A model generated the notes under the pieces. The model made no database searches and was not told the origin of the DNA. It saw only the letters and a list, made by a program, of their open reading frames with translations. 25,797 nucleotides of DNA from a virus (lineage: Duplodnaviria; Heunggongvirae; Uroviricota; Caudoviricetes): IMG/VR virus record IMGVR_UViG_2839594473_000019. One strand, given 5' to 3'. The position numbers and the translations under genes are program-made. Positions 13,233-16,509 of this stretch are shown here, piece by piece; the first letter of the stretch is position 1; each line of letters begins with the position of its first letter.

Positions 13233-13649
13233 GTGTCTCAACCACTTTCGGAAATATTGACATGGGATGATGAACAATGGGAGGTATTTGTCCATGATTG
13301 GCTTATTGTCTGTAAATCAGATGATTACCCGTGGAGCGAACGTTTGGGAGGAGCTGGAGATAAAGGTAGAGACGTTGTTGGATATAAATCGGATCCTAAC
13401 GTAGAAGGTTATTCTTGGGATAATTATCAATGCAAACTGTACAAAAAAAGTTTAGGGTTCTCTGATGTTGTAGTTGAGTTTGGAAAACTTATCTATTTTA
13501 CTCTGAATGGTGATTATCCCATCCCTCAGAAGTACTTTTTTGTGGCACCCTATGATTTATCTACTACATTTTCTAATTTATTGAAAAATAAAAACGAGCT
13601 TAAAAAAGCAGTCCTTGATTCATGGGATTCAGCAATTTCAAAAAAATAA
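13233..13649 (+). CDS. Cargo ORF-A: PD-(D/E)xK-like nuclease-domain protein (138 aa), possibly the N-terminal part of a larger effector
   Basis: GTG start 7 nt after an AGGAG and 3 nt after the int stop; motif GDKGRDVVGY…NYQCKLY fits the D…(E/Q)xK nuclease signature; ends in an A7 tract overlapping ORF-B in the -1 frame. Confidence 0.6.
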   Translation: MSQPLSEILTWDDEQWEVFVHDWLIVCKSDDYPWSERLGGAGDKGRDVVGYKSDPNVEGYSWDNYQCKLYKKSLGFSDVVVEFGKLIYFTLNGDYPIPQKYFFVAPYDLSTTFSNLLKNKNELKKAVLDSWDSAISKK

Positions 13650-14239
13650 CTAAAAAGATTGATATTCCATTAGATGATGAAATAAAAAAATATATTGAGG
13701 ATTTTGATTTTAGTATTTTTTACTCTCTACCCTTATCATTGATTTTAAATGATATTGCAAATACACACCTTTATTTTAAGTACTTTAACGAGCTGTATGT
13801 CGTGAGAATCCCTCCAAATGAAATTCCAACATACAATTCAAAAAAAGAGTCTGTATATGTTAATGCACTGCTTCAAGCCTATTCAGAGCATGGAAATAAA
13901 ACTTATAGTTCTTTCTTAGAGCTTGATGATCCATACAGACGACACTTTAATAATAGTAGAAATGATTTTTATTTTGCATCTTCGCTTGAGGTTTTTGTCC
14001 GCGAAGTATTTAAAGATGATGTATTCAAAGCATTGAAATGTTACATTTCATCTTCAATTGAACCCGTCTTTTATGAAGACCATAATTATGCATTTATTAG
14101 GTGTAATGCAGTCTTGAAGCAGGCTGTTCTGACACCAATTGCACATTCAGTACTATCAAAAATATGTGAAGCAAATGATAAAAAAGGAATATGCCATCAT
14201 TTGGTTAATGATGGTGAAGTAATTTGGACGGTGAGATAA
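13622..14239 (+). CDS. Cargo ORF-B: hypothetical protein (205 aa), possibly the C-terminal continuation of ORF-A
   Basis: AT-rich ORF overlapping ORF-A by 28 nt in the -1 frame with no evident ribosome-binding site of its own; no recognisable motif. Confidence 0.5.
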   Translation: MGFSNFKKITKKIDIPLDDEIKKYIEDFDFSIFYSLPLSLILNDIANTHLYFKYFNELYVVRIPPNEIPTYNSKKESVYVNALLQAYSEHGNKTYSSFLELDDPYRRHFNNSRNDFYFASSLEVFVREVFKDDVFKALKCYISSSIEPVFYEDHNYAFIRCNAVLKQAVLTPIAHSVLSKICEANDKKGICHHLVNDGEVIWTVR

Positions 14240-14697
14240 TGGTTAGAATTTATAATTCAAGTTTAGAAGTGGCATGTCGAATGGCGAAAGTGCTCGTCGC
14301 TATTTATCCTTCTTCATTAAGCCTTGAACGGCTTATTTGTTTTGATTTTATTTTAGTAAATCTTAAGGATTTTTTACCTGAAGAGATTAGTCTTCATCCT
14401 CCAATACCCCGTAGAGATGCTCAGTTAGCCCTAAAACGAGAGATTGTTTTAGAATCATTGGCTTTGTTGCAAGGCTATGAACTAGCCTCAAAAATTTATA
14501 CACATCGTGGTTTTGTATATAAAGCTTCTGAAAAAACATATGCATTTACAAATTCTCTACATAATGAATATGTTGCGCAGATGGAGCATAATATAAATTT
14601 GGTGGTTAAGTTATATAGTGATATTCCTGATGAGCAGTTGCAATCAATTATAAAAAATAAAATTGGCAAATATGATATGGAATTTAATTATGAATGA
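14239..14697 (+). CDS. Cargo ORF-C: small hypothetical protein (152 aa)
   Basis: ATG overlaps the ORF-B stop (TAATG coupling); no recognisable motif; sits between the nuclease-like and ATPase-like genes. Confidence 0.55.
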   Translation: MVRIYNSSLEVACRMAKVLVAIYPSSLSLERLICFDFILVNLKDFLPEEISLHPPIPRRDAQLALKREIVLESLALLQGYELASKIYTHRGFVYKASEKTYAFTNSLHNEYVAQMEHNINLVVKLYSDIPDEQLQSIIKNKIGKYDMEFNYE

Positions 14698-15322
14698 CAA
14701 TTTTTTTACGTTCAGAAAAATAAAGGTAACCGGATTCAATAAATTAGATGCTATAATTGAATTTGGTTCTAAATTGACTATTTTATATGGTGGTTCTGAC
14801 TCTGGAAAAACATACATATATTATTTGATTCGATATTTATTAGGGAGTGAAAAACTAAAAAATAAAGATATCGATCATGCTCAAGGTTATGATTTAGCCT
14901 ATCTGGAATTTAATTTTCAAGGTAGGGTAATGACAATTGAGAGGTCTCTTCAGGATAGCGCCCATTACAGATTATATGATTCGAGCATTGAAAATGTTAG
15001 TGAAGCTAATCTGTTGATGGTTTTTTCCAAAAGTGCTTCGTCTAAAAAGAGTTTTTCATCATACTTTTATGGTAGGTTGAATTTCAAAGAGGCTAAAGTA
15101 AGAACAAACTTAAGTAATACTCTTCATAAATTTAATCTTAATAATGTTTTTGAATTTTTTTGTATTGATGAATTAAGAGTGTTAACTGAGAAGTCGTTAA
15201 TTCTTTCTGATATTCCTAGCGAGGAGACAAAAAGAAAGTCTGAATTTAAATTCCTTTTAACTCAGAGAGATGATACTAACTCCTTAGCAGAAAAACCAAA
15301 TAAAAAAGCAAGATATTTTTAA
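14690..15322 (+). CDS. Cargo ORF-D: N-terminal head of an SMC/Rad50/RecF-like ABC ATPase (Walker A), ending at an in-frame TAA
   Basis: FRKIKVTGFNKLDAIIEFGSKLTILYGGSDSGKTYIYYL has the RecF/SbcC-type N-terminal layout with Walker A GGSDSGKT (14789-14812); ATG at 14690 overlaps the ORF-C stop. Confidence 0.6.
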   Translation: MNDNFFTFRKIKVTGFNKLDAIIEFGSKLTILYGGSDSGKTYIYYLIRYLLGSEKLKNKDIDHAQGYDLAYLEFNFQGRVMTIERSLQDSAHYRLYDSSIENVSEANLLMVFSKSASSKKSFSSYFYGRLNFKEAKVRTNLSNTLHKFNLNNVFEFFCIDELRVLTEKSLILSDIPSEETKRKSEFKFLLTQRDDTNSLAEKPNKKARYF

Positions 15323-15943
15323 AAAAATCAAATTGCAAATATTTATGAGGAATTGAAAGCGCAATTAATTTATCCTGAATATGATCAAGTCATTGTTTCA
15401 AGAGAACTTGAGAAAGTAGAGCAAGATATTGAATCATCGAAAGATATATTGAAAGGTATTGTTGATGCACTTGATGATAAGAAGCAATTATTAAAAGAGT
15501 TAAGTGATGAATTATATTCAATCAGTGACAGGGAAAAATACTTATCATTACTCATTGAAAGATTTAGTCTTCTTAAAGACCAATACTTTATAGATCTACA
15601 AAGAATAGATGTTGTATCACAGGCGAATTTCTATTTAAATAATTTTGCAGATATTTATTGTGAGTTCTGTAATACACCGCAAAAAAAAGAAAATGAAATA
15701 TCATATGATGATTGTTTTTTGTCGTGTAATGCAGAAAAATTGAAAATCAAAAGCCAGCTGAAAGGATTAATTGAATCAATCGGATCTAATGTTCGCGAAC
15801 ATGAATTAATTATGTTAAGAAAAAATGATGTTAATGAAATTTATCAATCAGAAAAAAGTGATTTTAAGACGTTAGAAGATAAAAATATAAAACAATACAT
15901 TCATCTCTTGAATCACTTTATGAATATAAAGACAATCTTTTAA
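15323..15943 (+). CDS. Cargo ORF-E: predicted coiled-coil segment with a Cys4 cluster, same frame as ORF-D and lacking a credible own start
   Basis: Heptad-rich sequence with C-x2-C…C-x3-C (15659-15727); the frame is open directly from the ORF-D stop codon; the first start codon is a TTG at 15353 only 2 nt after a GAGG. Confidence 0.5.
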   Translation, partial: KNQIANIYEELKAQLIYPEYDQVIVSRELEKVEQDIESSKDILKGIVDALDDKKQLLKELSDELYSISDREKYLSLLIERFSLLKDQYFIDLQRIDVVSQANFYLNNFADIYCEFCNTPQKKENEISYDDCFLSCNAEKLKIKSQLKGLIESIGSNVREHELIMLRKNDVNEIYQSEKSDFKTLEDKNIKQYIHLLNHFMNIKTIF

Positions 15944-16509
15944 TGGATCACACAAAACATAGCATTCTATCTTCATTACAAGATAAAGAAGATGATGTTG
16001 ACGAACTTAAATACTCCGCCGAGGACTTTGACTCCTTAACAGTAGCTGATTTGTATGATATAGAAATAGCGATGCAAGACTTTTTGAATGATATAAATTT
16101 TGAAAATTCTAAAGATAACAAAGTGCGATTTGACGAAGATACATATGACTTTAATATCAATGGGAAACGCCGAGGAATGTTTGGTAAAGGTACCCGTGCA
16201 GTAATGCATGCTATATTTACCATTTGCTTTGCGGAATTTTTATCAAGAAAAGGGAATCCATTCATTGGATTTGTTGTGCTTGATAGTCCATTAGTGACGC
16301 ACTTTGATAAAGATAGAGGGGGTTCTCTATCGGATGTTAATAGCGTCAGTCTCAGTGATTCATTTTATCACGCATTAATCAAAAGGGACTATAATTTCCA
16401 GATTGTAATTCTTGAGAATAAAGGTCCGACGTTCCAAATAAAAATTAATGATGCAAATAAAATCCATAACTTAAATAAGAATGGAAGCTCTGGTTTTTAT
16501 CCTGTTTAA
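15943..16509 (+). CDS. Cargo ORF-F: C-terminal head of an SMC/Rad50/RecF-like ABC ATPase (signature-like motif plus Walker B)
   Basis: GMFGKGTRAVMHAIFTICFAEFL (signature-like, 16174-16203 onward) followed by GFVVLDSPLVTHFD (Walker B-like, 16261-16290) parallels the RecF/SbcC C-terminal lobe; ATG overlaps the ORF-E stop in the -1 frame. Confidence 0.6.
   Translation: MDHTKHSILSSLQDKEDDVDELKYSAEDFDSLTVADLYDIEIAMQDFLNDINFENSKDNKVRFDEDTYDFNINGKRRGMFGKGTRAVMHAIFTICFAEFLSRKGNPFIGFVVLDSPLVTHFDKDRGGSLSDVNSVSLSDSFYHALIKRDYNFQIVILENKGPTFQIKINDANKIHNLNKNGSSGFYPV

What the first reader, a model, noticed from the sequence alone, without database searches (positions are those of the whole stretch)
13233..16509. 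Candidate nuclease + SMC-like ATPase defense operon (Lamassu-like) in the int-psu cargo slot of a P4-like satellite
Six same-strand, tightly packed AT-rich ORFs begin 3 nt after the integrase stop and end before ogr/psu/sid, where P4 carries cII-beta-gop. ORF-A has a PD-(D/E)xK-type motif (GDKGRDVV…QCK). ORF-D, ORF-E and ORF-F read as the Walker A head, a coiled coil with a Cys4 cluster, and the signature/Walker B head of an SMC/Rad50/RecF-like ATPase. The inferred three-gene layout (effector about 340 aa, small protein about 150 aa, ATPase about 600 aa) matches what I recall of Lamassu LmuA-LmuC-LmuB / DdmABC. I cannot tell from sequence whether it is a known subtype or a new variant.
Basis: partly seen in the sequence, partly recalled or inferred. 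Interest (0 to 1): 0.85.

Follow-up and report, generated by a model that had tools for sequence, protein, structure and literature searches.

The report
Broken Lamassu defence operon in O157 satellite
The six small genes are the pieces of an ordinary three-gene Lamassu anti-phage system (Mrr-type nuclease, small adaptor, SMC-like ATPase) in the cargo slot of a P4-like satellite prophage of E. coli O157:H7, broken by two frameshifts and a stop codon; the locus is already annotated and published, so it is a known and probably dead system.

Summary
Window 13233-16509 is E. coli O157:H7 prophage Sp2, which is P4-like. ORF-A+B match one LmuA model end to end, ORF-C matches LmuC, and ORF-D+E+F match one LmuB model (PADLOC E 1e-21 to 1e-50; Pfam CTD6 and MC2 of ABC-3C systems). 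Intact relatives of 335, 152 and 606 aa exist in Proteus mirabilis and in a P4-like element carrying the system in the same int-ogr/psu/sid slot. DNA alignment pins three lesions: a 1-nt deletion in lmuA (about 13642), TTA>TAA in lmuB (15321, O157 only) and a 1-nt deletion in lmuB (about 15881). Repairing these three bases restores colinear full-length ORFs. The two frameshifts occur in every E. coli genome carrying the locus (O157:H7 and O55:H7 only), and different strains add private indels, nonsense codons or an IS. Structure models place LmuA next to solved LmuA and Mrr-type PD-(D/E)xK nucleases, and LmuB next to solved LmuB and Rad50. It is a short (type II) Lamassu of the Mrr subtype, decaying in this lineage. 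An O55:H7 allele, itself frameshifted, was published as 'Lamassu-var' with only a small-plaque phenotype. This is a known kind and a known locus, so interest is low.

The parts
12048..13229 (+). P4-type tyrosine integrase (context). It forms one conserved block with the Lamassu cassette.
   Evidence: RefSeq annotation. Window 11840-16511 is 82% identical to L005/L006, against 67-73% for the rest of the P4 core.
13233..13649 (+). ORF-A: lmuA 5' fragment, encoding the Mrr-type PD-(D/E)xK nuclease domain (GDKGRD at 13356-13373, QCK at 13428-13436)
   Evidence: PADLOC LmuA PDLC03852, positions 10-140, E 9e-41. The motif is invariant in 116 homologs.
13640..13649 (+). Lesion 1: an A7 run left by a 1-nt deletion, followed by the resulting TAA stop. 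Intact relatives read tcaaaGaaaata or tccaaTaaaata.
   Evidence: DNA alignment. Identical in all 309 E. coli records that match.
13622..14239 (+). ORF-B: lmuA 3' fragment, encoding the LmuA C-terminal domain (CTD6). The ancestral frame continues from about 13646.
   Evidence: PADLOC LmuA positions 141-333, E 4e-44. Pfam PF20282 CTD6, E 8e-30.
14239..14697 (+). lmuC (ABC-3C middle component 2), 152 aa, intact
   Evidence: PADLOC LmuC PDLC03871, E 2.5e-36. Pfam PF20288 MC2, E 6e-30. Same length as the orthologs, 91% aa identity to Proteus.
14690..15322 (+). ORF-D: lmuB fragment 1, the N-terminal ATPase head lobe with Walker A (14786-14812)
   Evidence: PADLOC LmuB PDLC03863 positions 3-199, E 8e-50. 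Pfam AAA_23. Conserved residues.
15320..15322 (+). Lesion 2: TAA nonsense codon (T>A at 15321, Leu211>stop), specific to O157
   Evidence: O55:H7 DEC5B, CB9615 and TB182A, Proteus and L006 all lack the stop here (TTA or CTG, Leu).
15353..15943 (+). ORF-E: lmuB fragment 2 (same frame as ORF-D), encoding the coiled-coil arm with the CxxC zinc-hook motif (C324 at 15659-15661, C327 at 15668-15670)
   Evidence: PADLOC LmuB positions 231-412, E 1.6e-21. The AF2 model of the ortholog has helices 233-318 and 339-439 flanking the CxxC loop.
15881..15885 (+). Lesion 3: an A5 run where Proteus has A6 (L006 has ctgaaa at this site). This 1-nt deletion shifts lmuB at about codon 397.
   Evidence: DNA alignment. 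306 of 309 E. coli records are identical here, and the only one of the other three that was listed is 1 nt shorter, not repaired.
15943..16509 (+). ORF-F: lmuB fragment 3, the C-terminal head lobe with GKGxR and Walker B FVVLDSP (16270-16290)
   Evidence: PADLOC LmuB positions 428-608, E 5e-37. Conserved columns.
16536..16569 (+). Terminator-like hairpin (13 pairs) 27 nt after the lmuB stop, marking the end of the cassette
   Evidence: Homology to Proteus L004 ends at 16583 and to L005/L006 at 16511.
16919..18497 (-). ogr/delta, psu and the sid-like gene of the P4-like satellite (context: the right border of the cargo slot)
   Evidence: Pfam Ogr_Delta and Psu. Psu is 31.3% identical to P4 Psu.

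Best explanation
This is a short (type II) Lamassu, also called an ABC-3C system, of the Mrr-nuclease subtype. The genes run lmuA-lmuC-lmuB and sit as cargo between int and ogr/psu/sid of the divergent P4-like satellite prophage Sp2 of E. coli O157:H7. By homology to solved Lamassu complexes, the intact system would work as follows. Two SMC/Rad50-like LmuB protomers and LmuC hold the C-terminal domain of one LmuA monomer. DNA ends produced during phage replication are sensed by LmuB. LmuA is then released and tetramerises through its C-terminal domain, and its PD-(D/E)xK nuclease cuts DNA, aborting the infection. This mechanism is inferred and was not tested here. In this window the system is a decaying pseudogene cluster, and that part is shown. 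A 1-nt deletion separates the LmuA nuclease domain from the domain that couples it to the sensor. A 1-nt deletion and a nonsense codon cut LmuB into head lobe, arm and head lobe. Only lmuC is whole. The two frameshifts predate the O55:H7/O157:H7 split, and further lesions have accumulated since, so canonical Lamassu defence is most likely lost.
Against: PMC11754643 cloned the O55:H7 TB182A allele of this locus (which also included ogr/delta) and reported smaller plaques for T2, T4, T6 and RB69. That allele carries the lmuA frameshift and two lmuB frameshifts, so the fragments may keep some activity. The lmuA lesion is an A_AAA_AAA heptamer followed directly by a stop, a sequence on which -1 slippage could give some full-length LmuA (read from the sequence; the slippage is my inference). 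PGAP calls all six ORFs as ordinary CDSs. No expression or phage data exist for the O157 allele. The mechanism is transferred from Cap4-type Lamassu; no Mrr-type complex has been solved.
Confidence: 0.85

Rival explanations
1. The fragmented locus is still a working, if weakened, defence system. Some full-length LmuA would be made by -1 ribosomal or transcriptional slippage on the A7 run. LmuB would be rebuilt non-covalently from separately translated head and arm fragments, as split Rad50 and SMC head constructs can be.
For: A small-plaque phenotype was reported for the frameshifted TB182A allele. A_AAA_AAA followed by TAA lies exactly at the lmuA break. ORF-F starts at an ATG that overlaps the ORF-E stop (TAATG). 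All 105 conserved LmuB columns that the clade keeps are still intact.
Against: The O157 allele has an extra nonsense codon that leaves a 30-nt untranslated gap. Each sublineage has added different disruptive mutations, and within E. coli there are 11 nonsynonymous or nonsense substitutions to 1 synonymous. Some strains carry an IS inside the locus. The lmuB frameshift site (gat aaa aat) is not a slippery heptamer. The reported phenotype was weak, was seen only at the highest dilutions, and came from a construct that also carried ogr/delta.
Confidence: 0.1
2. The frame breaks are sequencing or assembly errors in homopolymer runs, and the real genome has three intact genes.
For: Two of the three lesions lie in A runs.
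Against: The lmuA site is identical in all 309 complete-genome records and the lmuB site in 306 of 309, from many laboratories and including Sakai and EDL933. The third lesion is a substitution. O55:H7 genomes share the two indels.
Confidence: 0.01
3. It is a different ABC-ATPase defence system (Gabija, PARIS or Septu-like, or MADS) and not Lamassu.
For: ORF-D also gives weak hits to GajA, AriA, PtuA and mad3 (E 1e-3 to 1e-6).
Against: Those hits cover only the P-loop head and are at least 40 orders of magnitude weaker than the LmuB hit. All three components match Lamassu-specific models, and the folds match solved LmuA and LmuB.
Confidence: 0.02

Closest known systems
Short (type II) Lamassu / ABC-3C, Mrr-effector subtype (DefenseFinder 'Lamassu-Mrr'; PADLOC LmuA PDLC03852, LmuC PDLC03871, LmuB PDLC03863)
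   Same: Gene order lmuA-lmuC-lmuB with overlapping junctions. LmuB of 606 aa with Walker A GGSDSGKT, Walker B VVLDS and one CxxC. LmuC is MC2. LmuA is an Mrr-like nuclease plus CTD6.
   Different: Here lmuA is split in two and lmuB in three by point lesions. I found no experimental work on an intact member of this particular clade.
'Lamassu-var' of Johnson et al., Nucleic Acids Res 2024 (PMC11754643), cloned from E. coli O55:H7 TB182A (CP038295)
   Same: It is the same locus at more than 99% nucleotide identity. It has the same int-psu slot, the same 31% Psu identity to P4, and the lmuA and lmuB frameshifts.
   Different: TB182A lacks the O157 nonsense codon but has a second 1-nt deletion at about 15852. 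The paper treats it as a new multi-gene variant and does not mention frameshifts or pseudogenes.
Vibrio cholerae DdmABC and Salmonella enterica LmuACB (solved Cap4-type Lamassu complexes: 9ny5, 9uxh, 9hqu, 9hqx)
   Same: Three-component architecture. The LmuB fold and the LmuA C-terminal domain fold match. The presumed mechanism of DNA-end sensing, LmuA release and tetramerisation is the same.
   Different: About 10-15% sequence identity. The effector nuclease is Mrr-type, not Cap4-type. This LmuB clade has a CxxC, whereas Vc LmuB has none.
P4 satellite cargo slot (gop-beta-cII in P4 itself; the hotspot catalogued by Rousset et al. 2022, as cited in PMC11754643)
   Same: The cargo lies between the integrase and ogr/delta-psu-sid. 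The element also has the alpha primase and the C4 and isrK RNAs.
   Different: The satellite is a divergent P4 relative (Psu 31% identical to P4 Psu). The int+Lamassu block is better conserved than the rest of the element.

Membership tests
Lamassu (short / type II = ABC-3C) | LmuB: SMC/Rad50-like ABC ATPase of about 600 aa with Walker A Gx4GK[S/T] | tested here: met
   The three fragments tile LmuB HMM positions 3-608. The repaired ORF is 606 aa and has GGSDSGKT. The profile hits solved LmuB at E 3.8e-13 and the fold matches LmuB and then Rad50. The criterion comes from PMC12663957.
Lamassu (short / type II = ABC-3C) | Walker B of the short type, hhhhD[Q/S/T/E] | tested here: met
   FVVLDS at 16270-16287. 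D532 and S533 are invariant in 30 homologs.
Lamassu (short / type II = ABC-3C) | A short antiparallel coiled coil between the head halves, with 0-2 CxxC zinc-hook motifs at the apex | tested here: met
   The AF2 model of the 87%-identical ortholog has helices 233-318 and 339-439 around a loop with invariant C324/C327. The window has CEFC at 15659-15670.
Lamassu (short / type II = ABC-3C) | LmuC: a small middle component encoded between lmuA and lmuB | tested here: met
   152 aa. PADLOC LmuC E 2.5e-36 and Pfam MC2 E 6e-30.
Lamassu (short / type II = ABC-3C) | LmuA: an N-terminal effector domain fused to the Lamassu C-terminal domain | tested here: met
Lamassu (short / type II = ABC-3C) | Uninterrupted reading frames for all three components, so that the system can be functional | tested here: not met
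   One frameshift in lmuA, and one nonsense codon plus one frameshift in lmuB, relative to intact orthologs. This fails the claim that the system is functional. It does not fail homology.
Lamassu (short / type II = ABC-3C) | Anti-phage or anti-plasmid activity that depends on the LmuB ATPase and the LmuA nuclease | not testable with these tools
   The only data are a small-plaque phenotype for the frameshifted O55:H7 allele, with no mutant controls mentioned in the parts of the paper I read (PMC11754643).
Mrr-type PD-(D/E)xK nuclease (effector domain) | Restriction-endonuclease-like fold with the D...D...(E/Q)xK catalytic motif | tested here: met
P4-like phage satellite | Integrase, ogr/delta, psu, sid, alpha primase-helicase and the C4-type immunity RNA in P4 order | tested here: met
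   Annotation. Pfam Psu and Ogr_Delta. Rfam C4 and isrK. It is divergent: Psu is 31.3% identical to P4 Psu. Mobilisation by a helper phage was not tested.

The most novel reading that the evidence does not exclude
The commonest 'P4-hotspot defence system' in E. coli genome collections (cluster 1, 259 of 910 hotspots in PMC11754643) would be a clonal, frameshifted Lamassu-Mrr that nevertheless keeps measurable anti-T-even activity. Full-length LmuA would come from -1 slippage on the A_AAA_AAA-TAA site created by the deletion, and LmuB would work as a non-covalently reassembled split SMC-like protein. That would show Lamassu tolerates splitting of both sensor and effector.
Probability: 0.08. Interest if true: 0.5.

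Novelty: already known. Interest (0 to 1): 0.18.

Why it matters
This matters mainly as a correction and as an example. Lamassu is well characterised, defence cargo in the P4 int-psu slot is well documented, and this locus is already annotated and published. Two points may be useful. First, the published 'abundant Lamassu variant' with 3-9 CDSs is best read as a canonical three-gene Lamassu-Mrr broken by point lesions in one clonal lineage (O55:H7/O157:H7). Its abundance therefore reflects how heavily O157 has been sequenced, and its weak phenotype came from a frameshifted construct. Second, it is a clear case of a satellite defence system that has been inactivated and kept rather than swapped out, which a recent preprint (10.64898/2026.02.27.708500) reports to be rare. 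Three defined single-base repairs, or the intact Proteus or L006 cassettes, would give a clean way to test an Mrr-type Lamassu experimentally.

Tried and rejected
- **PDB with single sequences:** phmmer with LmuA, LmuB and LmuC gave nothing significant. A profile was needed for LmuB and structure comparison for LmuA. The LmuA profile also found nothing in the PDB.
- **NCBIfam:** no hits for any component.
- **Structure prediction of the fused O157 LmuA:** I modelled the 67%-identical Xenorhabdus LmuA (P0033) instead.
- **Short query across the nonsense codon:** lost to low-complexity masking. The frequency of the TAA allele among O157 genomes was therefore not counted directly. It rests on four aligned alleles plus the uniform six-ORF annotation pattern.
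- **Independent lmuA breaks in Pantoea L005 and Proteus L003:** I suspected these because the gene callers gave 201 and 145 aa. Rejected: both are intact 335-aa ORFs with GTG starts.
- **The 2026 preprint's non-protective 'Lamassu variant':** I suspected it was this locus. Rejected: it is an LmuBC-SMEK system, and strings from this locus are absent from its sequence files.
- **The apparent tRNA-Thr discrepancy:** resolved. The first 2.26 kb of the window differs from EDL933 by an IS insertion, so the tRNA lies outside the window.
- **Promoter scan:** no more sites than in shuffled sequence, so no promoter is claimed.
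Full report
**Where the window comes from.** From position 2261 to its end, the window is 100% identical to E. coli O157:H7 EDL933. The finding lies in the element that the Sakai record annotates as 'prophage Sp2, P4-like phage'. ORF-A starts 3 nt after the integrase stop. A strong terminator-like hairpin follows ORF-F at 16536-16569, and ogr/delta, psu and a sid-like gene follow on the opposite strand. 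G+C falls to 26-38% across the block, against 45-51% in the flanks.

**What the ORFs are.**

| ORFs | PADLOC model | HMM positions matched | E-value |
|---|---|---|---|
| A and B | LmuA, PDLC03852 | 10-140 and 141-333 | 9e-41 and 4e-44 |
| C | LmuC, PDLC03871 | whole protein | 2.5e-36 |
| D, E and F | LmuB, PDLC03863 | 3-199, 231-412 and 428-608 | 8e-50, 1.6e-21 and 5e-37 |

ORF-A and ORF-B match consecutive parts of one model, and so do ORF-D, ORF-E and ORF-F. Pfam independently assigns CTD6 (ORF-B) and MC2 (ORF-C) of the ABC-three-component systems, and AAA_23 to ORF-D. ABC-3C is another name for type II Lamassu (bioRxiv 10.1101/2025.06.23.660979). RefSeq already uses these names, and the Sakai record marks the ATPase as a pseudogene.

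**Intact relatives and the exact lesions.**
- A conceptual LmuB fusion retrieved full-length 606-aa proteins from Proteus mirabilis (87% identity) and Pantoea alhagi (75%).
- Their loci encode lmuA (335 aa, GTG start), lmuC (152 aa) and lmuB (606 aa).
- In L005, L006 and L007 the cassette sits between a P4-type integrase and ogr/psu/sid, downstream of proBA. This is the same slot and the same chromosomal neighbourhood as in E. coli.
- Lesion 1 is a 1-nt deletion in lmuA. It leaves an A7 run (13640-13646) followed by a TAA stop.
- Lesion 2 is T>A at 15321, which turns TTA (Leu211) into TAA in lmuB.
- Lesion 3 is a 1-nt deletion in an A run at 15881-15885, at about codon 397 of lmuB.
- All three were mapped by nucleotide alignment. 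ORF-D and ORF-E are in the same frame.
- Restoring these three bases gives ORFs of 335, 152 and 606 codons that align without gaps to the orthologs.

**Distribution and decay.**
- The locus is present in 309 of 5,426 complete E. coli genomes, always at 99% identity or more. Every strain listed with a serotype is O157:H7 or O55:H7.
- The lmuA frameshift is identical in every record. The lmuB frameshift is identical in 306 of 309, and the only one of the other three that was listed is 1 nt shorter, not repaired.
- O55:H7 genomes share both frameshifts but not the nonsense codon. Each has its own further damage: +A at about 15819 in DEC5B; -A at about 15852 in TB182A and CB9615; and +T at about 15154 plus CAA>TAA at 15329 in CB9615.
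- Three O157 strains carry an IS1203 inside the locus.
- Against the Proteus and L006 orthologs, dN/dS is 0.06-0.115, so the genes were under purifying selection until recently.
- Among the E. coli alleles there are 9 nonsynonymous, 2 nonsense and 1 synonymous substitutions, plus 4 private indels.
- No intact allele closer than the Proteus one (89% nucleotide identity over the cassette) was found, either in the E. coli genomes or in the 5.8-billion-protein database.
- This is the signature of a recently inactivated, neutrally decaying gene cluster. It is not a sequencing artefact.

**Subtype.**
- In 116 LmuA homologs, G42, D43, G45, D47, Q66 and K68 are invariant. A few homologs carry Pfam Mrr_cat.
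- An AlphaFold2 model of the 67%-identical Xenorhabdus LmuA has mean pLDDT 95.
- Its best Foldseek matches are solved LmuA chains, followed by Cap4, Avs3, MspJI and FokI.
- The LmuB family has an invariant Walker A, an hhhhDS Walker B, a GKGxR motif and an invariant CxxC.
- The LmuB profile hits Salmonella Lamassu LmuB at E 3.8e-13, then Rad50 and SMC heads.
- The model of the Proteus protein (pLDDT 86) has an N-terminal head lobe, helices 233-318 and 339-439 with the CxxC loop between them, and a C-terminal head lobe. It matches solved LmuB chains first and Rad50 next.
- These are the features that Haudiquet et al. (PMC12663957) give for 'short' Lamassu, and they list Mrr among its effectors.

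**Mechanism.** Three structural studies agree on how Lamassu works (PMC12663957; bioRxiv 10.1101/2025.03.14.643221; 10.1101/2025.06.23.660979). A LmuB dimer and LmuC sequester the C-terminal domain of a LmuA monomer. DNA ends or phage replication intermediates are sensed, LmuA is released and tetramerises, and its nuclease is activated, killing the infected cell. I infer the same for the intact ancestor of this locus. In the window:
- Lesion 1 separates the nuclease domain (ORF-A) from the domain that couples it to the sensor (ORF-B).
- Lesion 2 cuts LmuB just after the N-terminal head lobe.
- Lesion 3 cuts it in the descending helix.
Canonical function is therefore very probably lost. That conclusion is an inference from the sequence.

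**What argues the other way.** Johnson et al. (PMC11754643) found this locus as the most frequent cluster of int-psu hotspots in E. coli: 259 of 910, '3 to 9 CDSs', Psu 31% identical to P4 Psu. I measured 31.3% for the Psu in this window. They cloned CP038295 4116517-4120474 as 'Lamassu-var' and saw smaller plaques for T2, T4, T6 and RB69 at the highest dilutions only. That region is the O55:H7 TB182A allele of this same locus, plus ogr/delta. It carries the lmuA frameshift and two lmuB frameshifts. The paper does not mention frameshifts or pseudogenes. Residual activity of the fragments cannot be excluded. The lmuA break happens to form an A_AAA_AAA heptamer followed by a stop codon, where -1 slippage would recreate the full-length protein (the slippage is my inference). 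I give this reading about 10%. The reasons are that the O157 allele has an additional nonsense codon, that each sublineage keeps adding disruptive mutations, and that the phenotype was marginal.

**Mobility of the cassette.** The int+Lamassu block (window 11840-16511) is 82% identical to L005/L006, while the remaining P4 core genes are only 67-73% identical. In Proteus the cassette, with the 3' end of an integrase gene still attached (window 12329-16583, 86.5% identity), lies in an unrelated island next to smpB. The cassette therefore moves between elements together with its integrase end.

**Verdict.** This is a Lamassu (LmuA-LmuC-LmuB) operon with broken frames in the cargo slot of a P4-like satellite. 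It is a known subtype, already annotated and already published, and in this lineage it is a decaying pseudogene cluster. Interest is low. The only new point is that the published 'Lamassu-var' is a frameshifted canonical Lamassu-Mrr whose apparent abundance reflects the clonal O157:H7/O55:H7 lineage.

Noticed in passing
window 8745-9518 (-): This 257-aa 'LEM-3-like GIY-YIG' protein in the Sp1 lambda-like remnant is a full-length match to the single-gene defence system PD-T4-3 (PADLOC E 2e-140; Pfam LEM-3_GIY-YIG). It looks like an intact defence gene about 4 kb upstream of the broken Lamassu.
   Followed up: partly
window 23266-24222 (-): A 318-aa orphan ORF (Sakai ECs_0304) lies in an AT-rich stretch (29-37% G+C) between the P4 alpha primase gene and the right end of Sp2. 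It has no Pfam or PADLOC match. It may be a second cargo position holding an uncharacterised gene.
   Followed up: partly
window about 951-2260: A 1,310-nt insertion relative to EDL933 sits inside the Sp1 integrase remnant and carries an Rfam ALIL frameshift pseudoknot (1286-1402, 121 bits). It is an IS3-family element, presumably IS629/IS1203. The source strain is therefore neither EDL933 nor Sakai, and thrW lies outside the window.
   Followed up: yes
window 19763-19840 and 19909-19996 (+): Rfam finds isrK and C4 antisense RNA, the P4-type immunity RNA region. This supports a P4-like regulatory core despite the 31% Psu identity.
   Followed up: no
window 11840-16583; L004 5651-9894; L005 and L006: The integrase and the Lamassu cassette form one block that is better conserved (82-86%) than the rest of the satellite (67-73%). 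In Proteus only the 3' part of the integrase gene accompanies the cassette, in an smpB-linked island with a DUF927 primase.
   Followed up: partly
NZ_CP089270, NZ_CP089034 and NZ_CP089032 (hits H1-H3); NZ_CP041623 (H76); NZ_CP044147 (H82): There are further allelic variants. Three O157 strains have an IS1203 inside the Lamassu locus. ATCC 43888 has an extra 1-nt deletion near lesion 3. One copy of the broken locus is on a 46.9-kb record filed as an E. coli plasmid.
   Followed up: no
protein P0027: This is a 344-aa protein with an MC2 domain, 96% identical to the N-terminal third of LmuB. It looks like an LmuC-LmuB read-through or fusion variant of this locus from a sequencing-run assembly.
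   Followed up: no
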